A DNA stretch of 64,000 bases from an uncultured Elusimicrobia bacterium (lineage in GTDB: Bacteria > Elusimicrobiota > Elusimicrobia > Elusimicrobiales > UBA9959). The DNA lies in NCBI GenBank assembly GCA_903917735.1, contig CAIXBR010000123.1, positions 3,883-67,882 of the forward strand, read 5' to 3'. The number at the start of each line of letters is the position of its first letter. Within the stretch, counting starts at the first letter, position 1. Both the position numbers and the translations under genes were made by a program. Shown one piece after another: positions 5,942-50,270 of this stretch. Under the pieces are notes generated by a model. It was not told the DNA's origin. It made no database searches and worked only from the letters and a program-made list of their open reading frames with translations.

Positions 5942-6886
5942 ATGCATGTACATTTCTGGGGCACGAGAGGGTCGCTTCCTTATTCAATGACGGCCACTAC
6001 CGTAAGGGCGAAGATCCGCGCCGCCCTGCTTTTGTGGCGGGAAGAAAAGGGAACGGACGTTGATAGTTTTATCGACGGAAAGCTCCCCTTCCATATGCGC
6101 GGCGCCTACGGCGGGAATACATCCTGCGTGGAGATAGGGGGCTGCTCCGAGCCCGTGATCTGCGATGCCGGCACCGGCCTTAGGGACCTCGGGGCGGGGC
6201 TTGCCGGCGGCGCCCCGGCGGCAGCCAAGGTCTATAATATTTTCATTTCACATCTCCACTGGGACCATATTCAGGGTTTTCCCTTTTTTCCCCCGCTCTT
6301 CGATCCGGCTGCGGAAATAAATATTTTCGGCGGCCATGAAGATCTGCGCGAGGCTTTTACCGCCCAGCAGGAAGCCCCGTTCTTCCCGGTTCCCCTCAAG
6401 GCCGTCAGGGCGCGTTTGAATTTCCGAACGCTGAAACCGGACCGTCCCTACGATATCGCAGGCTGCAAGGTGCGTCCGATCGCCCAGTCTCATCCGGGTG
6501 GTTCGTACGGCTATATTTTTGAGCGCGGCGGCAAGAAGGTGGTTTACTCCACCGACTCCGAGCACAAGAGCCAGTCCGACAACGCCGGATATCCTTTTCT
6601 CAAGCACTTCAAGGACGCCGATCTCCTTATCCTTGACGCCCAGTACACACTGCTTGATGCGATAGACAAAAAGGAGAACTGGGGCCATTCCAGCAATCTG
6701 CTGGCCGTTGAACTGGCGGTGCGGTCCGGAGCCCGGAGTCTCTGCCTCTTCCACAACGAGCACACGTTCGACGATGAAAAGCTCTATAAATTCCTTTCCA
6801 ATACGGAAAAATATCTGCGGCTCTACGCTCCTTCCTCCCGGATAGAAGTTTTGATGGCTTATGACGGTCTGCATCTGATGCTCTGA
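5942..6886 (+). CDS. MBL-fold metallo-hydrolase
   Basis: HxHxDH motif (ISHLHWDHIQG). N-terminus MHVHFWGTRGS is typical of this superfamily. Confidence 0.8.
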   Translation: MHVHFWGTRGSLPYSMTATTVRAKIRAALLLWREEKGTDVDSFIDGKLPFHMRGAYGGNTSCVEIGGCSEPVICDAGTGLRDLGAGLAGGAPAAAKVYNIFISHLHWDHIQGFPFFPPLFDPAAEINIFGGHEDLREAFTAQQEAPFFPVPLKAVRARLNFRTLKPDRPYDIAGCKVRPIAQSHPGGSYGYIFERGGKKVVYSTDSEHKSQSDNAGYPFLKHFKDADLLILDAQYTLLDAIDKKENWGHSSNLLAVELAVRSGARSLCLFHNEHTFDDEKLYKFLSNTEKYLRLYAPSSRIEVLMAYDGLHLML

Positions 6887-6910
6887 AAAACATAAAAACC
6901 GCCGTCCCAG

Positions 6911-7166
6911 CGCCTGTTTTATCTATAATAACAAAACGCGGGCGTTTTTATGGATTTTGCGCGGTCCCCCCAGCGGCCGGCTGACCGGGCGTGTTTGCGC
7001 AGGGTTGTTGGTTTGTCAGTCGTCGGCCGGGGCGGGTTCTATATCTTAAATATAAGTCCGCGCGCAGGTCTAACCGGCATTCTTCGTCCGGCGGACCGCA
7101 GATTTGGGCTGTTTTGAGCGCGGGCTTGAATGTCGGGAATTCAGCCGGCAGGCCCAAGTGGGTTAA
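6911..7166 (-). mobile_element. IS91-family 3'-end relic, copy A (short form, diverged)
   Basis: Minus strand encodes GLPAEFPTFKPALKTAQICGPPDEEC. CTATAATAAC block at 6923-6932. Ends at GGGTTAA (7166). Confidence 0.65.
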
Positions 7167-24619: not shown

Positions 24620-24907
24620 TGGTGATTGTTTCCGCTATAATACCAAATCCGCGTACAGGACCCGGCCGGACTACGGCTTCGCGGCAATGACTAGAAACAA
24701 GTGCAGTGTGAATTCCGCTTTTATACGGCTATTTCGTCCCCCCTGGTTCGTCCTGTTTATTATTTCTGAAGCGAAAGCGCCAGCCCGGATAATACAGCAA
24801 ATCCAAGAGATAAAATTTTTTTATAAAAATACCCGGGACACAATATTTTGCTCCTGTCTTCGGACGGACACCGCCGCCTGAAGATAACATAGTAAATACG
24901 GATTGAG

Positions 24908-25196
24908 CAGAAAACACAAAGCTAATTATCGACTGTTTTTCCAGAGAGCCGCACCTTTTTCTTCTCCTGAAAGTTGCTAAAACTGCACCCTACCGCTATA
25001 ATAACAAAAAGCGTGGCTTTTCTTTGAAATTTTACTGAGTTCCCCGCGCCCGGCAGTGGCCGGGCGGGTTCTATTGCTTCGTATAAGTCGCCTTTCGGGT
25101 CCCGCTGGCAGTCTTCGTCTGGTGGACCGCAGGTTTGCGGCGCTTCAGGGGCAGGTTTAAACTTCGGGGAATCAGCGGGAGCCCCAGGTGGGTTAA
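24908..25196 (-). mobile_element. IS91-family 3'-end relic, copy B (short form)
   Basis: Minus strand encodes LTHLGLPADSPKFKPAPEAPQTCGPPDEDCQRDPKGDLYEAIEPA. TTGCTA-17-TATAAT at 24974-25002. Ends at GGGTTAA (25196). Confidence 0.8.
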
Positions 25197-25264: not shown

Positions 25265-25948
25265 ATGAGGTGGGAACCAACGATAAGTGCCCTTATGTTT
25301 ACTATAGATTTTCGGATCAGAGTCGGGTTTATGATCGTCGCCATGGTCTGGAATGTGGGGGCATTGGCGGCGGCGCAGCCGCAGGATGACGATCCTGTCA
25401 TCGAACTGCAAAAGACCCTGGAAGAGCAGGGAAAGCCTTATCAGGCGATAAACAATCTTAATCCTTTTAGTGATGACTACGGCAAGACAGATCCGCTTAC
25501 CCATACAAACTCATCAGGCGCCGTGGTCGTTTCATCCCAGTCGGCCAAGCAATTGGCGCAATTACAAAAGCTATTGTCCACCCCGGTCGTGCATGGCTAC
25601 TTGAGTCTGTTTTCTAAACCGGTTTTATCAAGCGGCATAAACAAGGTTATCAAACGTCCTAACCGCAAGATCCTTTTATATTCGGAAATAGGCTTACTGC
25701 TCTGCATGATCGTTTTTCGGGCTTGGCGACAATCCAAGGCGAAGCATTGGTACCGCAAGCTGTGGATAACTTTTTATTGCCTGGTTTTGGGCATGGGTCT
25801 TGGCGTGTTTGTGGTTCCGGCCGTTGTCATGGGGCGAAGTTATTTTGGTACGCTAAAGGAAATCGCGCAAAGCCTGCTGCCTTCGCATCATCGATATATT
25901 TTTAAAATTCCGGCCTTTGGAAACAATAAAGGACTCGGGGGAAGATAG
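25265..25948 (+). CDS. Hypothetical membrane/exported protein
   Basis: 227 aa with an N-terminal hydrophobic segment plus two C-terminal TM helices. No recognisable motif. Confidence 0.5.
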   Translation: MRWEPTISALMFTIDFRIRVGFMIVAMVWNVGALAAAQPQDDDPVIELQKTLEEQGKPYQAINNLNPFSDDYGKTDPLTHTNSSGAVVVSSQSAKQLAQLQKLLSTPVVHGYLSLFSKPVLSSGINKVIKRPNRKILLYSEIGLLLCMIVFRAWRQSKAKHWYRKLWITFYCLVLGMGLGVFVVPAVVMGRSYFGTLKEIAQSLLPSHHRYIFKIPAFGNNKGLGGR

Positions 25949-26038
25949 GCGGGAATACTTCAAGCACCCGCGCCAGACAGGCGGCCCAGGAATTAGCCTT
26001 CTTGTTCTGATGGTCTAGCAGGCGTTCCATGATTTATC
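25925..26038 (-). pseudogene. IS91-family transposase fragment
   Basis: Minus strand reads ..DHQNKKANSWAACLARVLEVFPPIFP. It matches KKKANSWAACLARVF.EIFPLICP of copy I. Confidence 0.6.
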
Positions 26039-26084
26039 AAGGCTATGCTAGTGCCGGAACAAGGCCTATGGCCATCAGACGACC
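26039..26084 (+). repeat. 46-nt hairpin mini-repeat, copy m1 (diverged)
   Basis: AAGGCTATGCTAGTGCCGGAACAAGGCCTATGGCCATCAGACGACC aligned to copies m4/m5. Confidence 0.6.
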
Positions 26085-33195: not shown

Positions 33196-33420
33196 CTGTT
33201 GCCCTATTTAGACCAAAAAACGATACAGGGTGCGCATACGGCCGCGCCATGTAAAAATGATACAAAAAGCCGCGGACATCCACTAGTGCCCGTACGGTAA
33301 CTCGCATTTTTATATCCTTTTTTGATATACCCCTAACGTTACAATACCAAAAGTCACGACGCTTCCGTAAAATTTAAAAAGCCATTCGTGTAAAGGGTGG
33401 GCTTTTTAATCGGGGGCGTC

Positions 33421-33523
33421 GGTAGGAAACATAAAGCTAATTAATGCCTGCTTTTCCGGAGAGCCATACCTTTTTTTCGCCTGAAAACGTGTGCAGCCGA
33501 AACCGTTTTTTGGCATAATAGAG
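33421..33523 (-). mobile_element. IS91-end relic, copy F (outer ~100 bp only)
   Basis: GGTAGGAAACATAAAGCTAATTAATGCCTGCTTTTCCGGAGAG.. aligns with the outer ends of copies D, E and I. It ends at the CATAAT box. Confidence 0.65.
33491..33519 (+). promoter_or_regulatory. Promoter-like motif within copy F facing the STAS gene
   Basis: GTGCAG-17 nt-CATAAT, 36 nt upstream of the ATG at 33555, with a GAAAGGGGG Shine-Dalgarno between. Positionally homologous to the TTGCTA-17-TATAAT of other copies. Confidence 0.4.
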
Positions 33524-33554
33524 CTATATCTTCGGCAGTTGAAAGGGGGCATAA

Positions 33555-33935
33555 ATGGAACTTGAACTGAAATCGGTAGAAAGGAAGCCGTGCTTTTTTG
33601 AGATATCGCTGTCCGGCAGGCTGGACAGTTCCACCTATATCCGGCTTGAGCAACTGATAGCCTCCCTCATGCAAACCGTGGTGAAAGCGATAGTGCTTGA
33701 TCTGAGCGGGCTGGAGTATATCAGCAGCATGGGGCTGCGGGTCATCTTCAAAACGATGAAAGATCTGAAGGCCGGCGGCGGCATTCTGCTGGTCACTAAC
33801 GCCCAGCCGCAGGTAAAGAAGGTTTTTGAAATAGCCCACGCGCTGCCCGACGATTCCATTTTCACCAGCGTCCGGGAGGCCGACGAGTACTACGATATGA
33901 TCCAGGAAAAGGTGAAAAAAGAGAACCGCCCCTGA
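33555..33935 (+). CDS. STAS-domain anti-sigma-factor antagonist
   Basis: 126 aa, DLSGLEYISSMGLRVIF motif. Confidence 0.8.
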   Translation: MELELKSVERKPCFFEISLSGRLDSSTYIRLEQLIASLMQTVVKAIVLDLSGLEYISSMGLRVIFKTMKDLKAGGGILLVTNAQPQVKKVFEIAHALPDDSIFTSVREADEYYDMIQEKVKKENRP

Positions 33936-34141
33936 GGAATAGTCCGCGTTCCCTCTTCGTTGTTTCCTCGGGATTCCAGGGTTTTTTGTGTAAAATATTA
34001 GAGTGTATCAAGCTGCCCGCCGCGTAAAAGCCGGGGGGCAGGGTTTATTTTGGTTATAACTCCCCCGTTGCCCCGTGCAAGCGACATTTACAGTCTAACA
34101 GGCGAACCCGTAAATTTCAATATTCGACCGCGGGGAAGCGG

Positions 34142-34800
34142 TCATTTCTCCGTATGGCGGGTTACGGCTTCGTAGTTTCTGTGATTCCCCCCCGCCGCTT
34201 TTTCAGCGCCCGCCGCCCGCTCAGCAGCGCCGCGCCGTACAAGCTCTATGAAAGCGGGAGGGTTAATGACCCCGCCATTGCCGCCGGTAGCCGAGCGCGG
34301 AGAGGTCTTTCACCTGGGCGGCCGTTAGCTCCGGGTCTGCCTGCCAGCCCAGGGCCGCCACGCCGGCTACATAAGGGATGGACCAACTGCAGCCGCCCTG
34401 CCCCCAATAAGAATAAGTGCGCCGGATGAATTCCGTATCCTCGGCGACAGTGCGCCCCGAGGCGGGAGCCAGCAGCTGGTACGGCCCGTCGTAAGAAGGC
34501 AGGTTGGGCAGGCCTTTTTTGCATTTCGCGGGATTTTCAGGGTCGACGGGGTCGTAGGTGCAGGGCCCTATAAAGCCGCGGTTATCCTCGCAGTCGAGCA
34601 CCAGTAAACCGGCCTTCTCCGCTCGCGCGAACGCCTAGTCCCATTTCTTATTGTTCTTTTTACCGGCGAACCTGGCTATCTACCGGGAACACCTGGTAAA
34701 AGCCATAAATCTGGCGTCCATCTACAGTAATAGCGATGAAGACCTGAAGGACTCCGCCATCTATTCGATGGACGCGGGGATATACCAGATGATCCCCAAG
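34142..34800 (-). pseudogene. Peptidase-like gene relic (S8-type serine motif), N-terminally truncated
   Basis: GGCSWSIPYVAGVAALGW has the same spacing as the subtilase GTSMAAPHVAG. There is an in-frame TAG and at least two frameshifts. The upstream part is cut off by copy C. Confidence 0.4.
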
Positions 34801-34808
34801 GCTTAAAT

Positions 34809-35080
34809 CTGCAGGAAACATAAGTGAGGCTATCGCCTGATTTTCCGGAGAATCTCCCCTTTTCCTTCGCTGAATTTTGCCGGGTTCCCCCTCGTCCGGC
34901 GGTTTGCCGGGCATGCGTATCCAGCTGGCATTGTTCATCGGGCGGGCCGCAGTTTTGCAGTGCTACAGGGGCAGGTTTGGACTATGGAAAATCGGCGGGC
35001 AACCCCAGGCAGGTTAAGAGCCGCATTAGCTCTTTATCATTGAGAATAACAGCCACCGGCTTTATTTCTCTTTTGCATTT
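34809..35080 (-). mobile_element. IS91-family 3'-end relic, copy C (long form, internally deleted)
   Basis: Outer end CTGCAGGAAACATAAG. Minus strand encodes KCKREIKPVAVILNDKEL.. Lacks the TATAAT block and part of the tail. Confidence 0.65.
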
Positions 35081-35889
35081 TTTTCCGGGGGCTTGCTGAC
35101 TTGCCCGGCCGCAGGCACCACGTATATTGACCCTTCGTAAGAGCCGCCGTGCTCGCCCCGGGCCTTGACTAAGAGCACCCAGCAGGACTCTTCAGAAACG
35201 GCCGCGTCCTTTGGAAGGACTGCCGTAACGCGGTACTCCCAGCCGGCCGCGGTCTGCGCCGCGGACCCCGCTTTGGCCGGCCGTGTCGCGGTCGGGCTGT
35301 CGCCTTCCCCGTACAGTTCCAGGACAGCCTCCACCGAAGCCGCTCTTTTCTCCAGCGTCAGTACACCGGCCGCCTCGGCGCCGGGCGCGCACCGTATCTC
35401 GTCCGGCTCCAGCTTCACCTTGCCGAAATGGATGCGGTCCATAAGGGAACTCCCGCTTAGCCACAAGCTCGACCCCGTACCCGCCAGCAGGAAGATGGCG
35501 CCGAGAGCCATATTGAAAGCATCTTTAGGGTCCAGGGACGCCCGCAGCTGCCAGCCGGCGTACCCGGCCAGCCCCAACATCACTATCGACACCAGCCAGA
35601 TTTTGGAGAGCAGTAAATCCGCGTAGTTGGCGGCCTTAGCCGGCACCCGCAGAAAGAGGAGCAGGAAAGGCAGCCCGAAAGGCCCGGTCCAAATCCCGAT
35701 CCCGCCGAAAAGCATCCCCACGCCCAGCACGAACCAGTGGTTGTAATTCTCAAGGAAGGCGGCGGGGTGCAGCAGGCCCGCCGCTACCAGCAGCAGCCAC
35801 AGGGAAGCCGGCAGCAACAGCGAGGAAAAAGCCAGCCCGGCTACCACCCCGCCCATGGACCCAAAATTTTCTTTAAACCAGTTCATCAA
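35062..35889 (-). CDS. Hypothetical polytopic membrane protein
   Basis: 275 aa, ~5 N-terminal TM helices and a soluble C-terminal half. Its last codons and stop lie inside relic C. Confidence 0.55.
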   Translation of the reverse strand: MMNWFKENFGSMGGVVAGLAFSSLLLPASLWLLLVAAGLLHPAAFLENYNHWFVLGVGMLFGGIGIWTGPFGLPFLLLFLRVPAKAANYADLLLSKIWLVSIVMLGLAGYAGWQLRASLDPKDAFNMALGAIFLLAGTGSSLWLSGSSLMDRIHFGKVKLEPDEIRCAPGAEAAGVLTLEKRAASVEAVLELYGEGDSPTATRPAKAGSAAQTAAGWEYRVTAVLPKDAAVSEESCWVLLVKARGEHGGSYEGSIYVVPAAGQVSKPPEKNAKEK

Positions 35890-35958
35890 AACCTCCGCGC
35901 GGCTTCAGTCCTGGAAAGTCAGATTCTTCTATCCCCCAAAAGTCATATTCCGGACTAT

Positions 35959-36085
35959 CTGTAGGAAAGATAAAGCTAATTATCGCCTCTTTTTCCGGAG
36001 AACCGCTCTTTTTGCTGCCTGAAAAATTTGCAAAAAGTCTTTCTTTACCGTTATAAAAAAGTCGGCGTGGTTTCTTTAAAAAAAG
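35959..36085 (-). mobile_element. IS91-end relic, copy D (outer ~125 bp only)
   Basis: CTGTAGGAAAGATAAAGCTAATTATCGCCTCTTTTTCCGGAGAACCGC..TTGCAA-17-TTATAA. Confidence 0.65.
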
Positions 36086-36129
36086 CCCTCTTGGTACGAT
36101 GTACGGTTTAAGGCCGTGGGATGGCGGCA

Positions 36130-36522
36130 TCACTGTCCGGTTCGCGGATCGCTCCACACCACGGTGCTGCTGGAGGTATCGCAGCAGAACTCAGGACATT
36201 TTCCGTCCCCGCCGCCGGTCATTCCGCCGTCCGGAGCGCAGAGCCGGAGCCCGTTCACGTCGTAAAGGGCGCTGTACTGATCGCAGCAGACCGGCGGCAC
36301 ATAATAAGCAACCGCGCCCTTATACCCGCATTTATATATTTTACGCGGAGGGTTAGCGACAGGTTCCCGCTGGAACCCGGCTATCATCTGTTGAAGCCAA
36401 TCCCCTTTAGATCGTTCTGGAATGCCGGGACGCGAACATCCGCATAGCGGAACCAAAAGGATAATGACCGCGGCACGGATAAATCCCCGATTCAGATCCT
36501 TACTTAATGACGTTTTAACCAT
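36130..36522 (-). CDS. Cys-rich lipoprotein, hypothetical
   Basis: Lipobox LVPLCGCS and paired Cys motifs (PPVCCDQY, GKCPEFCCD). Confidence 0.6.
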   Translation of the reverse strand: MVKTSLSKDLNRGFIRAAVIILLVPLCGCSRPGIPERSKGDWLQQMIAGFQREPVANPPRKIYKCGYKGAVAYYVPPVCCDQYSALYDVNGLRLCAPDGGMTGGGDGKCPEFCCDTSSSTVVWSDPRTGQ

Positions 36523-36786
36523 AGCCTCATATTCAGCCGGAGCAGATTCGGTTGATCGGAAGGACTGCCGCTTTATTGTCCTGTAATAGCGTCGTAAACT
36601 TCCCTGTTAACAAATACCATTGCGGCGAATGGATATCTTGTCAGTTTCGGTGCGGCATCTTCGGCATAGGCCGCAGAACCGTCCAGGATGAACATATCCT
36701 GGTAGCCCTGCCCGTCGCTGAGAGGCTTGACCTTAAAACCGGCTAATGCCAGCTCCCGGACTGCACATAAGTGTCCAGGCCTTCAT

Positions 36787-37194
36787 CTGTAGGAAATATA
36801 AGAGCGGTTATTGCCTGTTATTTTCTTTTTTTTCGGAGAACCGCCCCTTTTTCTTCGCCTGAAATTTGTCGAAAACTTCCCTTACCGCTATAATAACAAA
36901 AAGCGGGGCTTTTCTTTGAAATTTTGCCGAGTCCCCCCGCGCCCGGCGGTTGCCGGGCGTATCGGGCGGTTAGTGGTTGGGTCAGTCGTCAGCCGGGGCG
37001 GGGTCTATTGCTTCGTATAAGTCGCCTTTGGGGTCCGGCTGGCTGTCTTCGTCTGGCGGGCCGCAGGTTTGCGACGCTTTTGCGTCAGGCTTTAACTTCG
37101 GGAAATCAGCGGGCAGGCCCAGGTGGGTTAAAAGCCGCACAAGTTCTTTATCATTGAGAATAATAGCGGCCGGCTTCATTTCCAGTTTACATTT
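36787..37194 (-). mobile_element. IS91-family 3'-end relic, copy E (long form, best preserved)
   Basis: Minus strand encodes KCKLEMKPAAIILNDKELVRLLTHLGLPADFPKLKPDAKASQTCGPPDEDSQPDPKGDLYEAIDPAPADD then stop, then the hairpin GCCCGGC-AACC-GCCGGGC, an AT-rich block, and the outer end ..CCTACAG. Confidence 0.85.
36866..36894 (+). promoter_or_regulatory. Conserved sigma70-like motif inside the relic end (reads antisense to the transposase relic)
   Basis: TTGTCG-17 nt-TATAAT. The same spacing is found in copy B (24974-25002, TTGCTA), copy I (49252-49280, TTGCTA), copy D (TTGCAA/TTATAA), and copy H on the opposite strand (48071-48099). Confidence 0.45.
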
Positions 37195-37196
37195 GA

Positions 37197-37850
37197 TTAT
37201 GGAACCTGTGGGGGCTCGTGACTAGCAGCTGATGGCAAGATTTTGGGTGTTGTATTCTTATCAACCTGCTCCCCTATCCCGGGATGGTCTTTTTTCAACT
37301 GCGCCATTTCGGCTTTATTGGCGTCCCGCAGTGCTTTGAGAGATGCGCTTTGGCCGGCTTTCCTGGCTTTCATGGCCCTGCGTATTTCCGACTGAGGCTT
37401 CGACTTCAGACTTTCCCTGAGCACCGCTATTTCCTCTGCCTGACTGTTTTTTAATTCGGTGATAGCAGCTCTGTGCTTTTTCCTGAGTTCATAAACGGTG
37501 CTTATTTTCTCCTGCCGGGCCGGCTCCTGCTTAACCGGGGTTCCGGACAACTCAGGCGGGAGCAAAGCACCGGCCGGCTCAGACTTAATCGGAGCTCCTG
37601 CCGGCTCGGACTTGAGGAGGGTTCCGTTCGGCTCTGACTTGACCGGGGCTCCGGCCAGTTCGGGTTTGAGCAGCGCTCCGGACGGCTCAGACTTAAGCGA
37701 GGTTCCGGCAGGCTCGGATTTGAGCGGGGTTCCGGGCTGATCGGACTGTACCGGGGTGGTGGATATTGCAGGCCTGCTCTCCTGGGTGTTTTGCGCGCAG
37801 GAAGGCGCAGCGAACCAGACCGCTGTCATTACCGCAAATATCGTTTTCAC
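37197..37850 (-). CDS. Secreted protein with 9-aa tandem repeats and a basic helical C-terminal half
   Basis: Signal peptide MKTIFAVMTAVWFAAPSCA, eight LKSEPAG(A/T)x-type units, then an ELKNSQAEEIAVLRESLK.. helical region. Confidence 0.65.
   Translation of the reverse strand: MKTIFAVMTAVWFAAPSCAQNTQESRPAISTTPVQSDQPGTPLKSEPAGTSLKSEPSGALLKPELAGAPVKSEPNGTLLKSEPAGAPIKSEPAGALLPPELSGTPVKQEPARQEKISTVYELRKKHRAAITELKNSQAEEIAVLRESLKSKPQSEIRRAMKARKAGQSASLKALRDANKAEMAQLKKDHPGIGEQVDKNTTPKILPSAASHEPPQVP
37533..37748 (-). repeat. 27-nt in-frame tandem repeat (about 8 units)
   Basis: Repeated GGCTC(A/G)GACTT(A/G)A..GG..C(C/T)(G/C)C units encoding (L/V)KSEP(A/S/N)G(A/T)(L/P/S). Confidence 0.7.
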
Positions 37851-38044
37851 GTTTCCCTCCTGATGGTATTGCTTGATATTACAAAAATCCGGCCGCCTCA
37901 GTTCTTCCGGAATACTACCGAGCGCGGCCAGCAGAATTCCTAATAGATGCCGAACCGGCGATGGGCTATACTTATAATATTCGGAGGCCGGGCCGGGCTT
38001 CGGAGTAATGAGTTTAAAAGACGACTCAATAGGGAGAATATTCC

Positions 38045-38317
38045 ATGAATGCGATATTTTTTATATCTCTTCTGGCGCTCGCGCTCAGCGGATGTTTTGT
38101 GACGGGCAAGCCCGGAGGCGGGATGGAAATTATCCCGATCCTGCCGGCGGTCGTAGAAGTGGATATGGATTCCCATTATGAATACAACGGGTATCACTAC
38201 TACTATGACCATGACCGCTGGTACTACTCGAATTCAATGGGGGGCTCCCGGAGGGAACTGCCGAGAAACCGATGGCCCAGAGAGGTCCGGCACGGGAACG
38301 GGAATCCTCATCGGTAA
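38045..38317 (+). CDS. Small Tyr/His-rich lipoprotein, hypothetical
   Basis: Lipobox LALSGC, then HYEYNGYHYYYDHDRWYY. Confidence 0.55.
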   Translation: MNAIFFISLLALALSGCFVTGKPGGGMEIIPILPAVVEVDMDSHYEYNGYHYYYDHDRWYYSNSMGGSRRELPRNRWPREVRHGNGNPHR

Positions 38318-38321
38318 AAAG

Positions 38322-38626
38322 CCGCCTTTATAATAACTAGCCTATGGCCATGCCGTAACAAGAGCTATGTGCATCAGACAGCCAAAAATCGCGGTTTTTC
38401 TTTAAAATTTTGCTGAGTTCCCCCGCGCCCGGCGGTAGCCGGGCGTATCGGGCGGTTAGTGGTTGGGTCAGTCGTCAGCCGGGGCGGGGTCTATTGCTTC
38501 GTATAAGTCGCCTTTCGGGTCCGGCTGGCAGTCTTCGTCCGGCGGGCCGCAGGTGTGTTCATATAACGTCGCTTGCGGGGCCGGTTTAAACTTCGGGAAT
38601 TCAGCAGGCAAGCCTAAGTGAGTTAA
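38322..38626 (-). mobile_element. IS91-family 3'-end relic, copy G (short form, carries mini-repeat m2)
   Basis: Minus strand encodes LTHLGLPAEFPKFKPAPQATLYEHTCGPPDEDCQPDPKGDLYEAIDPAPADD then stop. Hairpin GCCCGGC-TACC-GCCGGGC. Ends at GAGTTAA (38626). Confidence 0.8.
38338..38383 (+). repeat. 46-nt hairpin mini-repeat, copy m2
   Basis: TAGCCTATGGCCATGCCGTAACAAGAGCTATGTGCATCAGACAGCC. It interrupts TATAATAAC | AAAAATCGCGG, which is contiguous in copies B, E and I. Confidence 0.65.
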
Positions 38627-38740: not shown

Positions 38741-39375
38741 AGCACTAATATTCATTTGGCCGGATTTTCACGGGAGAAGGTCAATATTTATCCGTAACCG
38801 TATACAAACGTTTACGCCCTCTAATAACTTTTGCCGAAGGTTTTTAACGCCGTTGAACAGCTTTTCCGTGAAGGGAAGGCCGTTCGGCGCCCTGGGCGCG
38901 GGCCAGCGGTTGACGCTGGCGTTCAAGTTCGGGAAAGAACTTGAAGGTTCCGGCCGGAAGCCCGCAGACTCCCCTGTTACCCGCGGGAAGCGCGCGGAGC
39001 ATGAAAAGGCCGCGCCGCTCCCCTTGCGAAAGAGAGCGGAAAAACGCTGCTCGAACAGCAGCTGGAAGAAAAGTTCCTGACGTGGTAAAAGTTCGCCTTT
39101 CCTGGCGGCCGTTCCGACCCCCATTAAGCAACAATCATCTGAGAATGTAAGAGTTCCTCCGCGGAACTCCTTCTGTACTCAACTTTCCCTTGAAAATTAC
39201 CGGTTTATCACGTATAACATCCGATAATATTGTTTGGTAAATGTTTGATGATTTGATGGTTTTTCCCTGATTTTTATCCGACACATTACAAACGGTAAAA
39301 AAATAAGGGTGTTCTTGTGGCCTCGGGAATTAACAGAGGTTGATTTGCGGCGTTTTACGGCGCGGCATCCGGCCT

Positions 39376-42300
39376 ATGAAAAGGATAATATTGTTTTTAG
39401 CGGCAACGGTACTCCTGTCGGCGGCGGTTTCCGCCGAACCGGAGTTGTTCCCGTTCAAGAACGGCATCCGGCCGCTCACCCCCGATCAGGAAGCGTACTT
39501 GAAGGACAGGGTGGTCCGGATAAATTCCATCAAGCCCAACAGACTGGCTCTGGCCAGGAGCGCCGCCGCGTCCGCGCCCCAGGCCGGACTGCCGCCCTCC
39601 GTCAGCAACTGGCAATACCTTCCCAAGGTCGGCAACCAGGGCGGCCAGGGCAGTTGCGCAGCGTGGTCCACCTGTTACTATTACAAAACCTACCAGGAAG
39701 CCAAGGAGCATGGCTGGAATAACCCCGATTACGGCGTGAATCCGGACCATGTCATGAGTCCGGCGTTCTGTTACAATCTTGTCAATGGTGGGGAGGACGG
39801 CGGGAGCATGCCCTCCTGGATAATGCAGATGATAGCGGATCACGGCGACGCTACCTGGCAGGATATGCCGTACGACCAGGGGGACTATCTCTCATGGCCG
39901 TCCCAGGCGGCATGGAAGAACGCCCTCCTCTACCGGGCGCAGAGCGCGGCGACCATAGATATTACCACCGATGCGGGAATAACGGCGCTTAAACAGCAAC
40001 TGGCCAACGGGGATATAGCCGTCATCGCGTTCAACGTCACGGCCAGCTTCGACCATTATCCCAGCGACTATCCCGGGGTCAACAGCCAGGTGCTTTATGA
40101 TAATTCCGGCGGCTCGCGCGGCGGGCATGCTGTGACGGTGATGGGCTATGACGACACCAAATCCTATGTGGGCGGTAACGGCGTTACCCAGCACGGCGCG
40201 TTCAAGATAGTAAATTCCTGGGGCAATACATGGGGAATAACCGACCCCGACATCGGGACCAAGGGATTTGTGTGGATGGCTTACGCATACCTGAAGAGCA
40301 AGACCGGCTACGGGCAGGCCTGGACTATGGTCGACAGGACGGGATATCAGCCTACCGTCTACGGAACCTTCGGCCTGGAGCATCCCAGCCGCGGGGACCT
40401 TAACGTTTATTTCCTTGGCGGCAGCAATAACGACAGTCCGGATTGGTCTTTTAACGCGCTGCCCAGCATGGGCGGGACGCATGCAGTTGCGCAGAAGGTC
40501 ACCGTGGACCTGTCATTGTACAGTCCCGATCTTAATGGTAAATTCTGGCTTAAGGTCAGCGATTCCCTGTCCAATTCCGCCACGGGACAGATAACATACA
40601 TGGGCGTTCAGCAGGCCGGTGGTCAGGAAGAAGTCTCGGCGGACACCCCGAAAAATACGCAGAACGGCAGCTATGTCTATGTACAGCTTTCCAACGGCGG
40701 AGGGGTAGGGTATACCGCGCTCGATCCTTCGTTCACCCAGGTTAACATTACAAGCCTCACGGTGACCTGGGACCTGATACCCGGCGCTAATTATACGGTA
40801 GTGCTGAGTTCGGACAGTTATTACACCGGCATTCTGTCTTCCGGGACCCAGGCCCAGAATTCCATCAACTTCCCCGGCCTTTCGGCAGGCGCAAGATATT
40901 ATTTCCAGGTCAAGATATCGACCGAATCGGACATGGGTTATTTTTACAACCGTTCTTCGGCCAGGACCCTGGTGGGGACATGGTCGGCCGCGACTGCGAT
41001 GTCAACGCCGCGGGGTTATCATGCCGCCATACTGCTGCCGGACGGCCGGGTGCTTGTTGCCGGCGGCTCCAGCGGCTCCTATCTCTCCTCCGCGGAAGTG
41101 TACGATCCGGGCGCAGGCACCTGGTCAAGCGCGGGTTCGATGGCGGCCGCGCGGACCTTTCCCGGCGCCGTGCTGCTGTCCGACGGCCGGGTGCTTGTCT
41201 CCGGAGGTTCCGGCTCCGGCGGTTTTCTTTCTTCCTCCGAACTCTACGACCCGGAGACCAATGCCTGGTCCGGCGCGGGGTCCATGTCCTCTCCGCGCGG
41301 GCGCCACACCGCCACGTTGCTACCTAACGGTAAGGTGCTTGTGACCGGCGGTTATTATTATGATAGTGAATGGCATTATCTTTCTTCCGCCGAGTTCTAC
41401 GACCCGAAAACCAATGTCTGGTCGAGCGCGGGCTCCATGTTTTCTGAGCGGGTATTTCATACCGCCACGCTTTTGCCTAACGGCAAAGTGCTGGTGGCAG
41501 GCGGGGATAACGGCTATCTCCCTCTCGCTTCGGCCGAGCTCTACGATCCCGTCACCAACAGCTGGTCAGCCGCTGCCGCGCCGCTATATGCGCGATATGC
41601 CCACACCGCCACGCTGCTGCCCGGCGGCAAAGTTCTGGTCGCGGGCGGGGGGGGAGGCGGATCCACCTCAGAACTCTACGATTCGAATACGAACAGCTGG
41701 TCGAGCGGGGGAGACATGCTGTCCTCGGGCCGTCAGTCTTCCACTTCGGCATTGCTGCCCGACGGCAAGGTTCTTGTGGCCGGCGGCCAGGGAGGCGGTT
41801 CCTCGACCGAGCTCTACGATCCGAAGACTAACGGCTGGTCGAGCGCTGGTTCGATGCTGTCTTCGGAGCGGGCCTACGGCACAGCCTCGCTGCTGCCCGA
41901 CGGCAGGGTTCTTGTGGCGGGCGGATACAGCAGCGGCTACCTTTCCTCCACCGAACTCTTCTCCCCGGCCGATCTGGTTTTGACAAAGTTGGCCCCGGTC
42001 TTTGCACAGGTGGGGGTTTCAAACCTTTCTGTTACATGGACGCCCGTTCAGGGCGCTAATTACACGGCTGTGCTTTCTTCGGACGCGAGTTTCATGAACC
42101 TTGCATCTTCAGCGACCCAGAGCGGAAATTCGGCCGGCTTTACGGGGCTTTCGCCCGCTACGCGGTATTTCTTCGAGGTCAAGCTTTCCACCGAGACCGA
42201 ATGGGCCTATGCGGGGAACACGATCTCCACCGCGACGCCTTCCCCCGCGGTCCTGTCCTGGACCGGAGAAACTAATTATGCCGCCGACGGACTGGACCCC

Positions 42301-45300
42301 GAAACCGGAACATCCACGATGACATTCACATACCGGGTTAAATTTACCGACGCCAACGGCAAAGCCCCGGCGGCCGGTTATCCGAAGCTCCATATACGGA
42401 AAGGCGGCGATGAAATAGTCGGCAGCCCGTTCACGATGGATCACATCAGCGGCGGTCCCTTAGCCGGCGCGATATATGAGTATTCGCGAAAGTTAAGCGC
42501 GGGAACGGATTATTCCTGCTATTTCGAGGCTTATGATTCCGATAATAACAGGGCCGCGGGGCCGCCCGTCTCGGCGGTGGACTCCCCGGACGTCTATGAC
42601 GGCGTCTGGGCGGTTGCGAATCATATGTCGTTGGCGCGAAGCGCCCATGCCGCAGTGCTGCTGCCCGGGGGCCGCGTGCTTATGGCCGGCGGTTCCAACG
42701 GATCTTACATTTCCTCCGCGGAGCTCTATGACCCGAACACTAACGCTTGGTCAAGCGCGGGTTCCATGTCATCAGCGCGCACCTATCACAGCGCCACGCT
42801 GCTGTCAGGCGGCAAAGTGCTGGTAGTAGGAGGGGCAGGAGGCGGCTCTTCTTCCGAGCTCTACGACCCGGACGCGAACAGCTGGTCGGGCACGGGCTCT
42901 ATGGCGTCGGCGCGGTATTATCACACCGCCACGATGCTGCCCAGCGGAAAGGTGCTTGTGGCGGGCGGCTCAGGCAGCGGCTGTCTTTCCTCGGCCGAGC
43001 TCTACGATCCCAATACGAACACCTGGTCAAGCGCGGGTTCCATGTCGGCGGCCAGGGAGTTCCATGCCGCCGTGCTGCTGTCTAACGGCAAGGTACTGGT
43101 GACAGGGGGGTATAACGGCAGTTCATATCTTTCCTCGGCCGACCTCTACGACCCTAATACGAACAGTTGGTCGAGCGCGGGTCCGATGTCTTATTCGCGC
43201 GGGTCGCACACCGCTACCTTGCTTCCCGGCGGGAAAGTGCTTATCGCGGGCGGAGGCTCCACGGCCGAGCTTTACGATCCGAACACCAATACCTGGTCGA
43301 GTGCGGGCTCTATGTACGTGACGCGCTACGACCACACGGCCACGCTGTTGCCCGACGGCAGGGTGCTCGTCGCCGGCGGTTCGGGCAGCGGTTATCTTTC
43401 CTCGACCGAGCTTTACGACCCGAACACGAATACCTGGTCAAACGCTGGGGCCATGTCGGCGGCACGATATTATCACACCGCCACCCTTCTGCCGTCCGGC
43501 AAGGCGCTGGTTGCCGGCGGTTATTATTATGAAAACAACACGTGGCATTATCTCTCATCCGCCGAACTCTACACTCCTGTCGGTTTAATGTTGACAAAGG
43601 TGACCCCGTCCCTTACGCAGGTGGGATTTTCGAGCTTTACCGTGACATGGACGCCGGTCGCCGGCGCGAATTACACGGCGGTCCTTTCCACAGACGCGAA
43701 TTTCATAAGCCTTGATTCTTCTGTGACCCAAGGCGGGAATTCAGCGACCTTTACGGGTCTCGCGCCGCTGACGCGGTATTTCTTTGAGGTCAAACTCTCC
43801 ACTGAAGCGGAATGGGCTTACTTCGGAAACAGAATATCCGCCGCGACGCCTTCTCCCGCGACCGCGCTGCATCCGCAATTCTTCCAGGTTTACGCGGCGA
43901 GCGCGACCGTGACCTGGGATGCTGTTCCCGGTTCCGCTTATACGGTGGTCCTGGGTTCCGATAGTTTCTACACGAATATCGTGTCGTCCGCGGGCCAGGC
44001 CGCGAACACAAAGACCTTTACGGGACTCAGTGCGGGAACAAGCTGGTATTTTGAGGTCAAGCTTTCTTCCGAAACCAATGCGGCTTACGCCTTCAATAGG
44101 ATATCCACGGCCACTCTTGCGGTCATGCCCTATCTCTCCGCCGGGCCGGTGTTTACGCATCTCTGCGCCAGCAGCATGACCGTGAACTGGTCTTCCGGAA
44201 CGGCCGCAATCGGTTTTGATCCTGCCGGCACGCTTTACACAGTGGAGCTCTCTACGGACGCCGGCTTCCAACCGGTGCTGGCTTCATCGCAAACTTACGG
44301 CCTGAGCGGAGTATTTGAGGATCTATCCCCTAACACATCCTATTATGCCCGTGTGCAGGCAATGAACGGCGGCGGTACGGGTACGGATTTCACCGCATTG
44401 GGCGCAACAGCCACTCTGGCGGTCATGCCCGGCCGGCCGGCGGGCGATGTGTACACGAAAATCTTCGCCGGCAGTATGACGGTCAACTGGTCTTCGGGGA
44501 CTGCTGCGACCGGCTACGATCCGGCCGGCACGCGTTACAAAGTGGAATTTTCAACATCAGCCGGATTCATCCCGATCTGCGGTTCCTCGCTGACATACGC
44601 TTTGAGCGCGGGCCTTACCGGTCTCGAGCCGGATACCATCTACTATTCAAGGATCGCGGCGGTAAACCGCTCAGGTGAGCCCTCTCTCTGGCTCGTCGCT
44701 CCGTCCACGGCCACCCTTCCCAACCCGCCGGCGGACGATAGTTCCCCGGTGAGGGACATGTCGGCCGGCAGTTTTGAATATCGATGGTCGGCCAACGACA
44801 ATCCTTCCGGAACGCTCTACGTGGCCCAGCTCTCGACCGCCCCGGGTTTTTCCGGGAGCGGCGATCGGCCGACCGCGACTGCCGGGACTTCCGCCAATTT
44901 CGCGGGTTTGACCGGCAATACGGCTTATTATGCGAGGGCGTATGCCATAGGCCGCGCAGGGCACATAACTCAGTTCAATACCGTAGTTTCCACTGTCACG
45001 CCGCCCCAGGCCCCCGCCGCCGGGGTTTTCAGCGTAGCCGGCTCGTCCGCGCTAACCGCCAACTGGGGGTTGGGCCTTAACAACGCCGCCGGGTTGACCT
45101 ATCTGGCACAGCTTTCCGTTTCGAATGTTTTTGCGGACGTCCTCGCGTCATCCGCTACGGCGGGAGTCTCGGCGGTATTCGGGCTTGGCGGACAGGGAGC
45201 CCCGCTCACTCCCGACACTTCCTACTACGTGCGCGTACTGGCGCTCGGTTATAGCGGTGCAGGGAACTTTTCGGACCTCGGGGGGATAGCAACGCTGGCT

Positions 45301-47833: not shown

Positions 47834-48137
47834 TTAACCCACCTGGGCCTACCCGCTGATTTCCCGAAGTTCAAGCCTGCCGCAAAAGCGTCGCAAACCT
47901 GCGGCCTGTCAGACGAAGACTGCCAGCCGGACCCGAAAGGCGACTTATACGAAGCAATAGACCCCGCCCCGGCTGACGACTGACCCAACCACTAACCGCC
48001 CGATACGCCCGGCAACCGCCGGGCGCGGGGGGACTCGGCAAAATCTCAAAGAAAAGCCCTGCTTTTTGTTATTATAGCGGTAGGGCGCGGTTTTAGCAGA
48101 GGATAACAGGCGATAATCGCACTTATGCTGCCTACAG
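47834..48137 (+). mobile_element. IS91-family 3'-end relic, copy H (short form, opposite orientation)
   Basis: Plus strand encodes LTHLGLPADFPKFKPAAKASQTCGLSDEDCQPDPKGDLYEAIDPAPADD then stop, hairpin, and outer end CCTACAG at 48131-48137. Starts 5 nt after the PorV-like stop. Confidence 0.85.
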
Positions 48138-48985: not shown

Positions 48986-49536
48986 AAAAGGATACCCCTG
49001 TATTTGTGGCGCCTTTCCGCTAGTACGCTACAACAATGGCTATCGGCATAACAGCTAGCGGCACCTGTATTCCTGAACTTCAGATATTCAATTGTAGCGT
49101 CACAACCCGGATTTGTCAAGGGCCGTAGGACCCCGTAGGACGATTGTCACGAAAAGGTAAAGCGTCAAAATATGTAGGCAACATAAAGACGGTTATCGCC
49201 TGTTATCCTCTGTTTTTCCCGGAGAACCGCACCTTTTTCTTCGCTTGAAAGTTGCTAAAACCGCGCCCTACCGCTATAATAACAAAAAGTGGGGCTTTTC
49301 TTTGAAATTTTACCGAGTCCCCCCCGCGCCCGGCGGTTGCCGGGCGTGTCGGGCGGTTAGTGGTTGGGTCAGTCGTCAGCCGGGGCGGGGTCTATTGCTT
49401 CGTATAAGTTGCTTTTTGGGTCCGGCTGGCAGTCTTCGTCGGGCGGGCCGCAGGTTTGCGGCGCTTTTGCGGCAGGCTTGAACTTCGGGAAATCAGCGGG
49501 CAGCCCCAGATGGGTTAAGAGACGCACAAGTTCCTT

Positions 49537-49582
49537 GGCCGTTTGACGAGCATAGCTCTTGATACGGCACTGGCATAGCCTT
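49537..49582 (-). repeat. 46-nt hairpin mini-repeat, copy m4
   Basis: AAGGCTATGCCAGTGCCGTATCAAGAGCTATGCTCGTCAAACGGCC, inserted between ILND and KELVRLL codons that are contiguous in copies C and E. Confidence 0.75.
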
Positions 49583-49633
49583 GTCATTGAGAATAACAGC
49601 CACCGGCTTCATTTCTAGTTTGCATTTAGGGCA

Positions 49634-49653
49634 TTATGCCGATATCGGCATAA
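49634..49653. repeat. Perfect 20-bp palindrome inside the transposase relic
   Basis: TTATGCCGATATCGGCATAA, immediately upstream (sense direction) of the point where long-form copies C and E begin. Confidence 0.8.
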
Positions 49654-49677
49654 GGGGCAGATAAGCGGGAAGATCTC

Positions 49678-49723
49678 GGCCGTTTGATGGCCATAGGCCT
49701 TGATACGGCACTGGCATAGCCTT
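49678..49723 (-). repeat. 46-nt hairpin mini-repeat, copy m5
   Basis: AAGGCTATGCCAGTGCCGTATCAAGGCCTATGGCCATCAAACGGCC, splitting ..CLARVF | EIFPLICPLC. Confidence 0.75.
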
Positions 49724-50270
49724 GAAAACCCGGGCCAGACAGGCGGCCCAGGAGTTGGCCTTCTTTTTGAGCTTATCAACTTTTTCTTGCACGATAATGC
49801 GGTCTGTTTCCTTTGCCGCTTTCGCGGCAAGCAGCGGCCGCAGCGGGGACCTGGGCGCCAGCGCGCCGTAATAGTGAATTATATTTTTATTTTTTTTGGG
49901 GGGGCGGCATAAGCAGGCCCCAGCGCCGCATGAACTCGATGGGCGTCATGGTCAGCAGTTCCGATTTCCCCTCCCTTGTATCAGTGCGGTAGATGACCAG
50001 ATTGCTTTTGACCGCATAGATAAGCCGCGCCAGCGAAATGGCGGGGCGGGGACCGGTGTAAAAACCAGTTCACACCTGCCCAGGGAGCCTGCTTTCATAT
50101 CAAAGAGCCCGTCCGAGACCACCGCGTGCACATGGATGTGCAGGTTCAGCGAGCCGCCGAACCGCTGTATAAAATGCAGTTGGGCGGGCGCCCCGCCGCC
50201 GTTCTTCCGCAGGAAGCGGTCTATTTCACGCGTGAATATTTTACAGCGTAGTGTCGCTCATTAGAGGGTC

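What the first reader, a model, noticed from the sequence alone, without database searches (positions are those of the whole stretch)
33421..38626. Head-to-tail array of IS91-family 3'-end relics, each next to one exported-protein gene or gene relic (cassette-like accretion island)
Seen: five copies or part-copies of one repeat lie in the same orientation within 5.3 kb (F 33421-33523, C 34809-35080, D 35959-36085, E 36787-37194, G 38322-38626). Two more (H 47834-48137, inverted; I 49172-50257) flank the next genes, and older copies sit at 6911-7166 and 24908-25196. On its sense strand a full copy has four parts: the last 50-70 codons of a transposase (..KCKLEMKPAAIILNDKELVRLLTHLGLPADFPKFKPA..QTCGPPDEDCQPDPKGDLYEAIDPAPADD then stop), a GC hairpin, an AT-rich block, and a common outer end ..CCTACAG. 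Copy I continues upstream into QRFGGSLNLHIHVHAVVSDGLF, IIHYYGALAP, SWAACLARVF and CPLC. These are hallmark blocks of IS91/ISCR-family HUH rolling-circle transposases, so the repeat is the transposase 3' end plus the adjacent terminus. Beside several copies, one short gene or gene relic on the relic's strand sits where the rest of the transposase should be. 37197-37850 stops a few nt from E. 35062-35889 terminates inside C. 36130-36522 ends ~45 nt from D. The PorV-like gene stops a few nt before H. Two genes in the array (33555-33935, 38045-38317) are on the opposite strand. Most intact genes in these units (35062-35889, 36130-36522, 37197-37850, 38045-38317, 48221-48985) carry signal peptides, lipoboxes or TM segments; the STAS gene 33555-33935 does not. 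Inference: units of cargo gene plus IS91 end have accumulated serially. Repeated one-ended rolling-circle capture (as proposed for ISCR elements) or recombination at the ends would produce this. I do not know of a described cassette array built this way. No intact transposase is in the window.
Basis: partly seen in the sequence, partly recalled or inferred. Interest (0 to 1): 0.8.

Follow-up and report, generated by a model that had tools for sequence, protein, structure and literature searches.

The report
Cluster of IS91-family right-end fragments
The repeats are real leftovers of a rolling-circle jumping gene (IS91 family) in an Elusimicrobiota genome. They look like short "right-end" copies made when transposition stops early at two fixed internal sites, a behaviour already shown for IS801, not like a new gene-cassette system.

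Summary
Nine copies or part-copies of one repeat lie at the stated coordinates. Each carries the last 50-70 codons of an IS91-family (Y2 HUH) transposase plus the adjacent oriIS terminus (..TTTCCTACAG).

The cassette-accretion reading is not supported. The inner ends are not random. Across the window and 12 other Elusimicrobiota contigs, 12 copies start at |TTAACCCAC and 5 start at |AAATGCAA. All 17 have a different upstream flank. The first site resembles the left (terIS) end of intact relatives (yAAyCCGACAC plus a palindrome). Two reciprocal left-hand fragments end at the second site.

This matches the experimentally shown behaviour of IS801, which makes 229/360/679-nt right-end fragments bounded by a left-end-like tetranucleotide.

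No unit of gene plus relic is seen twice. No flank is shared between copies, and no integrase or intact transposase is present. Population contigs are identical to the window. The nearest relatives (58-63% identical in the giant protease) are not syntenic, so an empty-site test was not possible.

Clustering (p~0.02) and shared orientation (8/9, p~0.04) are only mildly unusual. Multi-copy clusters recur in several other Elusimicrobiota contigs, mostly in one orientation.

Verdict: a new member of a known kind, of modest interest.

The parts
6883..7166 (-). Copy A. Class-1 right-end fragment that starts at TTAACCCAC (7166). Its oriIS end is degenerate and overlaps the stop codon of the convergent gene 5942-6886.
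24905..25196 (-). Copy B. Class-1 right-end fragment with a diverged oriIS end (..TTTTCTGCTC).
25929..26018 (-). Reciprocal left-hand transposase fragment (..KKANSWAACLARVLEVFPPIF). It ends exactly at the class-2 site (..TATCTTCCCC|GAGTCC).
33420..33545 (-). Copy F. Old, decayed terminal fragment with oriIS end ..TTTCCTACCG. Its inner limit is uncertain and reaches to about 10 nt from the STAS start codon.
34809..35080 (-). Copy C. Class-2 right-end fragment that starts at AAATGCAAA (35080). It has internal deletions and the oriIS end ..TTTCCTGCAG. The last 6 codons and the stop of ORF 35062-35889 lie inside it.
35959..36088 (-). Copy D. Short, diverged terminal fragment comprising the second hairpin, the AT-rich block and the oriIS end ..TTTCCTACAG. 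Its inner end lies near |AAAGAAA.
36787..37194 (-). Copy E. Complete class-2 right-end fragment (408 nt). It carries 65 intact C-terminal codons, a GC hairpin, a terminator-like hairpin with a T run, an AT-rich block and the oriIS end.
38322..38626 (-). Copy G. Class-1 start (TTAACTCAC at 38626) from a different transposase subfamily (SLYEH type). It lacks the oriIS end, being cut after TTATTATA. A 46-nt hairpin element is inserted at 38332-38385.
47834..48137 (+). Copy H. Class-1 right-end fragment, the only inverted copy, 96% identical to E. It has a ~43-nt internal deletion and starts 5 nt after the PorV-like stop codon.
49172..50270 (-). Copy I. The longest relic, a transposase pseudogene running from about residue 160 to the stop. 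It has frameshifts and two 46-nt insertions (49534-49583, 49675-49724). It is cut at its 5' side where the noncoding tail of an IS110-family element begins.
33555..38317 (.). Genes lying between the array copies. None is shown to be cargo.
- STAS 33555-33935 (+)
- subtilase-like gene fragment 34263-34640 (-)
- multi-TM ORF 35062-35889 (-)
- DUF6970 lipoprotein 36130-36522 (-)
- repeat-rich exported ORF 37197-37850 (-)
- small lipoprotein 38045-38317 (+)

Best explanation
The repeats are dead copies of IS91/ISCR-superfamily rolling-circle insertion sequences. At least two transposase subfamilies are represented. The host is an uncultured Elusimicrobiota bacterium.

Most copies are not randomly decayed full-length elements. 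They are discrete right-end (oriIS-end) fragments. Proposed mechanism:
1. Transposition starts at oriIS (..TTTCCTACAG, usually followed by AT).
2. It runs back through the 3' end of tnpA.
3. It stops early at one of two internal sites that mimic the normal stop signal: |TTAACCCAC (about 300-nt product) or |AAATGCAA (about 410-nt product).
4. The short product inserts without a target duplication.

Repeated insertions of such fragments, mostly in one orientation, accumulated in a gene-poor variable stretch (33.4-50.3 kb). That stretch is full of small exported ORFs and gene debris. Later decay, an IS110 insertion and 46-nt hairpin-element insertions then damaged the copies.

The genes between the copies are most simply resident accessory genes. 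Because each fragment carries the transposase gene's own terminator-like hairpins, copies lying just after a same-strand stop codon (E, H, C, D) probably now act as those genes' terminators.

Shown: the family assignment, the two recurrent boundaries, the unique flanks, the lack of a target duplication, the reciprocal left fragments, and the resemblance of the class-1 site to the terIS end.

Inferred: premature termination as the cause, independent insertion of each array copy, and the terminator role.
For: Family.
- Pfam Y2_Tnp hits the stitched relic.
- An intact relative (L007, 482 aa) has Zn_Tnp_IS91 plus Y2_Tnp.
- That relative scores 115 bits on NCBIfam IS91 and 177 bits on ISCR clade Ia.
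- It is about 35% identical to ISPps1.

Boundaries.
- Twelve independent copies begin at TTAACCCAC: window A, B, G, H; L027-L031; L033; L053; L056.
- Five begin at AAATGCAA: window C, E; L022; L054; L057.
- Each has an unrelated upstream flank.
- Fifteen other copies run on into tnpA at these points.
- The class-1 boundary occurs in both transposase subfamilies.

Ter mimicry. The left ends of five full-length relatives align as yAAyCCGACAC..TGTCGGG. This contains a 7-bp palindrome (DNA fold z = -2.5). It resembles TTAACCCAC and matches the IS91-family terIS layout of a cleavage tetranucleotide plus a subterminal palindrome (PMC13181058).

Reciprocal products. Left fragments end at the class-2 site in the window (25929) and in L031.

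Precedent. IS801 makes 229/360/679-nt right-end fragments bounded by a left-end-like tetranucleotide in 26% of events (PMC3189936).

No target duplication is seen at E, H or C.

Multi-copy clusters recur in other MAGs. Copies share one orientation in L028, L031, L033 and L056, but orientation is mixed in L022, L006 and L010. L056 and L028 also show head-to-tail ori ends.
Against: - No empty site could be shown for any copy. Same-population contigs are identical, and relatives at 58-84% identity are not syntenic.
- No intact transposase more than 80% identical to the window relics was found (best 77%), so current mobility is unproven.
- The internal sites and the target share only A/T-richness. 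They do not share a clear common tetranucleotide.
- The exact left terminus of the full-length element is defined only to within a few nt.
- Three relic boundaries lie 0-5 nt from stop codons (E, H, C). Simple random insertion does not explain this.
- D, F, the 5' end of I and the ori-side end of G do not fall at recurrent sites and need ordinary decay or rearrangement.
- The oriIS subterminal palindrome expected for the family is weak here.
Confidence: 0.6

Rival explanations
1. Gene capture and accretion. A short right-end fragment lying downstream of a gene is mobilised in trans. Termination at its weak inner site fails, so the upstream gene is carried along. Such gene-plus-end units then insert one after another, for example at the oriIS junction of a resident copy, and build a head-to-tail cassette-like array.
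For: - IS91-family elements do carry off upstream DNA. IS801 moved 290-1431 nt. One-ended transposition runs at 1-14% in IS91 and IS1294.
- The transposase scores higher on the ISCR model than on the IS91 model.
- Four relics (E, H, C, D) follow a same-strand ORF within 0-45 nt. Five array copies share one orientation.
- Head-to-tail ori ends with little or no spacer occur in L056 and L028. In L028 an exported-protein gene sits between two same-orientation relics.
- The array genes are absent next to the orthologous giant protease-PorV pair in two relatives.
Against: - No unit or inter-relic segment is duplicated in the window.
- All 17 class-1 and class-2 copies have unique upstream flanks, including several copies from the same MAG. 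Read-through is therefore not visibly common.
- The model needs the simple insertion step first and then a second step for every unit.
- A and B sit antisense between ordinary genes. Two array genes are on the opposite strand.
- Only 1 of 6 short copies in other MAGs follows a same-strand gene.
- The sequences after the array's ori ends (AT..) look like those after singleton copies elsewhere.
Confidence: 0.15
2. Ordinary decay. Full-length IS copies once inserted repeatedly in a dispensable region. They were then trimmed by deletions, by homologous recombination between copies and by other mobile elements. The shared inner ends reflect descent from a few already truncated progenitors, or recombination hot spots, and not transposase-made termination.
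For: - Bardaji et al. concluded that most natural IS801 fragments arise from reorganisations.
- Copy I is cut by an IS110-family element, G has lost its ori end, C and H carry internal deletions, and D and F are short and diverged.
- The region also holds a subtilase gene fragment.
- Left-hand fragments exist as well.
Against: - Random deletion does not give 12 and 5 independent junctions at the same nucleotide, in different genomes and in two transposase subfamilies, each with a different flank.
- Copying of a truncated progenitor with new flanks is itself transposition of the short element.
- Most copies keep the oriIS end, which is the end essential for IS91-family mobility.
Confidence: 0.2

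Closest known systems
IS801 'miniature' right-end fragments made by one-ended transposition (Pseudomonas syringae; Bardaji et al. 2011, PMC3189936)
   Same: - Both are IS91-family elements.
- The fragments keep the right (ori) end and run without gaps to a discrete inner end that resembles the element's left end.
- Several size classes exist: 229/360/679 nt for IS801, about 300 and 410 nt here.
- There is no target duplication.
- The fragments often lie beside genes for secreted proteins and in non-syntenic regions.
   Different: - The host is an uncultured Elusimicrobiota bacterium, and the transposase is only about 35% identical to characterised relatives.
- The inner site shares a 7-8 nt match (TAACCCA/G) with the left end, not just a tetranucleotide.
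- The same two sites recur across many genomes, whereas natural IS801 fragments mostly lack this hallmark.
- Mobility here is inferred from sequence and has not been observed.
ISCR elements and ISPps1 (IS91-like gene-mobilising elements next to resistance and catabolic genes)
   Same: - The transposase is of the Y2 HUH type, about 480-510 aa, with a zinc-binding N-terminal domain.
- The oriIS lies just downstream of tnpA.
- Neighbouring DNA on the ter side can be co-mobilised.
- The best NCBIfam score is to ISCR clade Ia (177 bits, far below the 925-bit cut-off). The best plasmid relative is ISPps1.
   Different: - No evidence here that the neighbouring genes were moved.
- The relatives have a recognisable palindromic left end.
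- The window holds only fragments and no working transposase.
Integron cassette arrays
   Same: A run of short, mostly single-gene units in one orientation, each followed by a copy of a repeated sequence.
   Different: - There is no integrase, attI or attC-type recombination site.
- The repeat is a transposase-gene tail plus an IS terminus.
- Two of the genes lie on the opposite strand.
- The repeats differ in length and in subfamily.
5'-truncated and non-autonomous Helitrons (eukaryotic rolling-circle transposons)
   Same: - Copies share one fixed terminus and vary at the other end.
- Short non-autonomous copies are mobilised in trans.
- Head-to-tail arrangements of termini occur.
- Flanking genes are occasionally captured.
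   Different: Helitrons use a different transposase family (Rep-helicase), occur in a different host domain, and have different termini.

Membership tests
IS91 / ISCR superfamily insertion sequence | Transposase with the Y2_Tnp (HUH, two-tyrosine) catalytic domain and the N-terminal IS91 zinc-binding domain | tested here: met
   Relic I hits Y2_Tnp at E 7e-13, and its HUH block LNLHIHVHAV is visible. The intact relative L007 hits Y2_Tnp at 1e-25 and Zn_Tnp_IS91 at 1e-16, both above the Pfam cut-offs. The NCBIfam IS91 equivalog score is 115 bits, just under its 125-bit cut-off, so this is a distant member.
IS91 / ISCR superfamily insertion sequence | Two different ends with no terminal inverted repeats: oriIS downstream of tnpA, and terIS upstream with a subterminal palindrome next to the cleavage site | tested here: met
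   The conserved right end is ..GCGATAAnnnnCCTTATGTTTCCTACAG. The left end of five full-length relatives is yAAyCCGACAC..TGTCGGG, with a 7-bp palindrome. The two ends are unrelated. An oriIS palindrome is only weakly detectable.
IS91 / ISCR superfamily insertion sequence | No target-site duplication, and a short target sequence abutting oriIS | tested here: inconclusive
   No direct repeat flanks E, H, C, L027, L030 or L031. In 9 of 12 copies 'AT' follows ..CCTACAG. Whether AT belongs to the target or to the element could not be settled without empty sites.
One-ended-transposition right-end fragment (IS801 type) | An intact right end, continuous sequence, and an inner end at a discrete site resembling the element's left end | tested here: met
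   Met for A, B, C, E and H, and for the inner end of G. Twelve copies start at TTAACCCAC and five at AAATGCAA. TTAACCCAC resembles the left end TAACCCGAC/TAACCCAAC. Not met for D, F and I, nor for the ori side of G.
One-ended-transposition right-end fragment (IS801 type) | Observed generation of the fragment from a full-length donor by the transposase | not testable with these tools
   This needs a transposition assay, or insertion polymorphism between near-identical genomes. Population contigs are all identical.
ISCR-type gene capture unit / mobile cassette | The same gene-plus-end unit present in two or more genomic contexts, or captured DNA ending at a surrogate ter site | tested here: not met
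   No inter-relic segment is repeated in the window. All 17 short copies have unique upstream flanks. Homologues of the array genes are absent from all fetched loci. The test is limited to 64 kb plus about 55 loci; whole genomes were not available.
Integron | A tyrosine-recombinase integrase with attI, and cassettes ending in attC sites | tested here: not met
   No ORF next to the array has an integrase domain. The repeat is a transposase-gene tail plus an IS terminus.

The most novel reading that the evidence does not exclude
The short right-end fragments may still be mobilised in trans. Occasional read-through of their weak inner stop sites would then drag the adjacent upstream gene along. 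Such gene-plus-end units would insert at or near existing oriIS junctions. The 33-50 kb region would then be a rolling-circle-built array of exported-protein cassettes, an integron-like accretion system with no integrase.
Probability: 0.12. Interest if true: 0.7.

Novelty: new member of a known kind. Interest (0 to 1): 0.3.

Why it matters
IS91/ISCR elements matter because they move neighbouring genes, yet their termination step is poorly understood.

These natural fragments map two precise internal stop sites in an uncharacterised branch of the family. One site mimics the normal left end. Reciprocal left-hand fragments are also present. This gives concrete sequences to test for what the transposase recognises at termination.

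The result also shows that short IS91-derived fragments spread in Elusimicrobiota, break metagenome assemblies at these points, and create chimeric ORF ends.

It does not reveal a new kind of gene-cassette system.

Tried and rejected
1. Synteny and empty-site test through the neighbouring DASS symporter. Homologues at 81-84% identity (P0002, P0010, P0016) sit in unrelated contexts.
2. The same test through the giant protease-PorV pair. Relatives at 58-63% identity keep only that pair.
3. Presence/absence polymorphism in the source population. Twelve contigs from several samples are 99.98-100% identical to the window and simply break at the repeats.
4. Search for an intact autonomous copy close to the window relics. 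The best hit is 77% identical, and most hits are on contigs of 1-2 kb.
5. The idea that the short copies form a separate MITE lineage marked by a 'TATATGAACAC' insert. Rejected, because the same variant occurs in full-length transposases L008, L009, L019, L052 and L060.
6. The idea that C extends upstream of the class-2 site into ORF 35062-35889. Rejected, because the tblastn extension is spurious.
7. The idea that the array sits inside a split subtilase gene. The fragment 34263-34640 does not reach C's ori end, and no N-terminal half lies beyond G.
8. Self-targeting, meaning an ori end directly preceding the class-1 or class-2 starts. Only a doubtful case in L054 was found.
9. Rfam finds nothing in the region.
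10. GC content and GC skew give no sign of a foreign island or of replication direction.
11. The metagenome DNA-pattern scan gave only 13 loci, of which 7 carried the element.

Full report
WHAT IS THERE

blastn of the longest copy against the window, together with an independent repeat search, recovers nine copies:
- A 6883-7166
- B 24905-25196
- F 33420-~33545
- C 34809-35080
- D 35959-~36088
- E 36787-37194
- G ~38322-38626
- H 47834-48137, the only inverted copy
- I 49172-~50270

On the sense strand a complete copy such as E has five parts:
- the last 65 codons of a protein ending ..LTHLGLPADFPK..DEDxQPDPKGDLYEAIDPAPADD
- a GC hairpin (CCCGGCAACCGCCGGG)
- a terminator-like hairpin followed by a T run
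- an AT-rich block
- a conserved terminus ..GCGATAAnnnnCCTTATGTTTCCTACAG

A stitched translation of I hits Pfam Y2_Tnp (E 7e-13) and the NCBIfam IS91 and ISCR models. No intact transposase is in the window.

SOURCE AND RELATIVES

The window is from an uncultured Elusimicrobiota bacterium. Identical contigs occur in several ENA metagenome samples. A scan of one genome per species found 30 loci with relatives of the transposase, all in Elusimicrobiota-type MAGs.

Intact genes of about 480-500 aa occur in L007, L008, L011, L012, L014 and L032. The L007 protein has:
- Zn_Tnp_IS91 plus Y2_Tnp
- 115 bits on the IS91 equivalog, whose cut-off is 125
- 177 bits on ISCR clade Ia
- about 35% identity to ISPps1-type IS91-like transposases on plasmids

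It is therefore a distant branch of the IS91/ISCR superfamily.

THE KEY RESULT: THE INNER ENDS ARE NOT RANDOM

I aligned every copy found in the window, in the genome loci and in a metagenome pattern scan.
- Twelve copies lose homology to the transposase gene at exactly |TTAACCCAC, the codons for LTHLGL. These are window A, B, G and H, plus L027, L028, L029, L030, L031, L033, L053 and L056.
- Five lose it at exactly |AAATGCAA, the KC of the CPKC zinc-finger motif. These are window C and E, plus L022, L054 and L057.
- Each of the 17 has a different upstream flank.
- Fifteen further copies read straight through both points.

The first boundary occurs in both transposase subfamilies present: a 'QTCGPP' type (A, B, H) and an 'SLYEHACGPP' type (G and most copies from other MAGs). 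It is therefore not inherited from a single truncated ancestor.

The left ends of five full-length relatives align as yAAyCCGACAC..TGTCGGG, a terminus followed at once by a 7-bp palindrome. This is the published layout of IS91-family terIS (PMC13181058). The internal site TTAACCCAC matches that left terminus (TAACCCGAC, TAACCCAAC) over 7-8 nt.

Two reciprocal left-hand fragments end at the second site. One is in the window at 26018-25929 (..TATCTTCCCC|GAGTCC, where full-length copies read ..TATCTGCCCC|AAATGC). The other is in L031.

No target duplication flanks the copies. In 9 of 12 cases 'AT' follows ..CCTACAG.

WHAT THIS MEANS

In the IS91 family, transposition starts at oriIS and ends at terIS or at sequences that resemble it (PMC13181058; PMC3189936). 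For IS801, a trap assay showed the following:
- 26% of events are right-end fragments of 229, 360 or 679 nt, bounded by a tetranucleotide like the left end.
- Rarer events carry 290-1431 nt of upstream DNA.
- In nature, IS801 fragments often border genes for secreted effectors.

The Elusimicrobiota copies have the same anatomy. They keep the essential oriIS end, run without gaps to a discrete inner site, and have new flanks each time.

I therefore read A, B, C, E and H, and the inner end of G, as products of premature termination (one-ended transposition) at two internal ter-like sites. This is an inference from sequence. No transposition was observed.

D and F are short and diverged. I is cut at its 5' side next to an IS110-family element. 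G has lost its oriIS end. These four features need ordinary decay.

THE CASSETTE-ACCRETION IDEA

Points in its favour:
- Four relics follow a same-strand ORF by 0-45 nt.
- The five array copies share one orientation.
- The family is known to capture upstream DNA.
- Same-orientation clusters recur elsewhere, in L028, L031, L033 and L056. They include two ori ends 62 nt apart in L056, and an ori end directly followed by a transposase fragment in L028.

Nothing shows that any gene moved with a relic:
- No inter-relic segment is repeated.
- All 17 short copies have unique flanks, including several copies from the same MAG.
- A and B lie antisense between ordinary genes. A sits between a metallo-beta-lactamase-fold gene and a PhoU-like gene. 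B sits between an MlaE permease gene and an ORF with no Pfam match.
- Two array genes are on the opposite strand.
- Only 1 of 6 short copies in other MAGs follows a same-strand gene.

The model also needs the simple insertion step first and then a second step for each unit.

Clustering (five in 5.3 kb, p~0.02) and orientation (8 of 9, p~0.04) are only mildly unusual. The region is gene-poor and holds a subtilase gene fragment, an IS110-family element and small ORFs without known families. This pattern is expected where insertions are tolerated. Shared orientation could also reflect strand-specific insertion of a single-stranded intermediate, but GC skew is too flat to test this.

The very tight spacing of E, H and C to stop codons is not explained by either model. 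One possibility is that copies bringing their own terminator just behind a gene are the ones that survive.

WHAT COULD NOT BE DONE

The decisive empty-site test failed for lack of close relatives:
- Contigs from the same population are 99.98-100% identical to the window and merely break at the repeats.
- Symporter homologues at 81-84% identity, and giant-protease homologues at 58-63%, sit in different contexts and carry neither the relics nor the array genes.
- No intact transposase more than 80% identical to the window relics exists in the protein collection. An active partner in this genome is therefore unproven.

VERDICT

The mechanism most likely at work is the known one-ended, prematurely terminated transposition of IS91-family elements. 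Here it is documented in a new phylum, with unusually clear internal stop sites.

The gene-capture reading remains possible at about 12-15%, but no positive evidence supports it.

Classification: a new member of a known kind, of modest interest.

Noticed in passing
window 49534-49583, 49675-49724, 38332-38385, 26034-26084, 58081-58116; also L053 ~230-330 and L018 ~10540: A 46-nt element (AAGGCTATGCCAGTGCCGTATCAAGGCCTATGGCCATCAAACGGCC) is inserted twice in relic I, once in relic G at TTTTTG|TTATTATA, and elsewhere in the window. The G insertion point is also hit in a copy from another metagenome. The element folds into a nested hairpin, and two copies differ by a compensatory stem change (GGCC/GGCC versus GAGC/GCTC). 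It looks like a REP-like or miniature mobile element spread across Elusimicrobiota. No partner enzyme was identified.
   Followed up: partly
window 25197-25928 with 25929-26018 and 24905-25196: ORF 25265-25948 (227 aa, no Pfam hit, opposite strand) lies exactly between two same-orientation IS fragments. One is a transposase left fragment that ends at the class-2 site. The other is relic B, which starts at the class-1 site. It is as if a 732-nt segment had replaced the 64 nt between the two sites of one IS copy. This may be a coincidence of two relics or a site-specific replacement event. It is unexplained.
   Followed up: partly
window 50276-51800: An IS110-family element abuts the truncated 5' end of relic I. 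Its transposase is 50674-51735 on the minus strand (DEDD_Tnp_IS110 plus Transposase_20), with about 400 nt of noncoding tail. It is probably responsible for that truncation.
   Followed up: partly
L033 ~10140-10320 and L006 ~10680: In two other MAGs a different small element, with terminal inverted repeats GATTCCGCTGAAAAACCCCC..GGGGGTTTTTCAGCGGAATC, is inserted at the same point of the IS91 relic (GAAGCAAT|). The apparent target duplication is AAGCAAT.
   Followed up: no
window 39340-47828: A 2484-aa secreted protein combines a C1 peptidase domain, Kelch beta-propeller blocks and many fibronectin-III-like repeats. Its stop overlaps the start of a PorV-like outer-membrane gene. The pair is the only part of the neighbourhood conserved in relatives (58-63% identity), which suggests a cargo-and-shuttle pair of a type IX-like secretion route in Elusimicrobiota.
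   Followed up: partly
window 34263-34640 (-): A fragment of a subtilase (Peptidase_S8, weak hit at 0.0025) lacks its N-terminal two thirds. It is gene debris inside the array region.
   Followed up: partly
window 36866-36894 and 49252-49280 (+): The conserved TTATTATAG block of the relic reads, on the antisense strand, as a good sigma-70-like promoter (TTGTCG/TTGCTA, 17-nt spacer, TATAAT). It points back into the transposase tail. This could be an antisense regulatory promoter of the intact element.
   Followed up: no
protein hits P0148, P0179, P0185, P0223: Several database ORFs combine a host domain (trypsin PF00089, PF03942, PF03994 or glucoamylase PF00723) with a C-terminus encoded by this transposase tail. 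Relic insertions therefore often create chimeric gene ends, as with 35062-35889 here.
   Followed up: no
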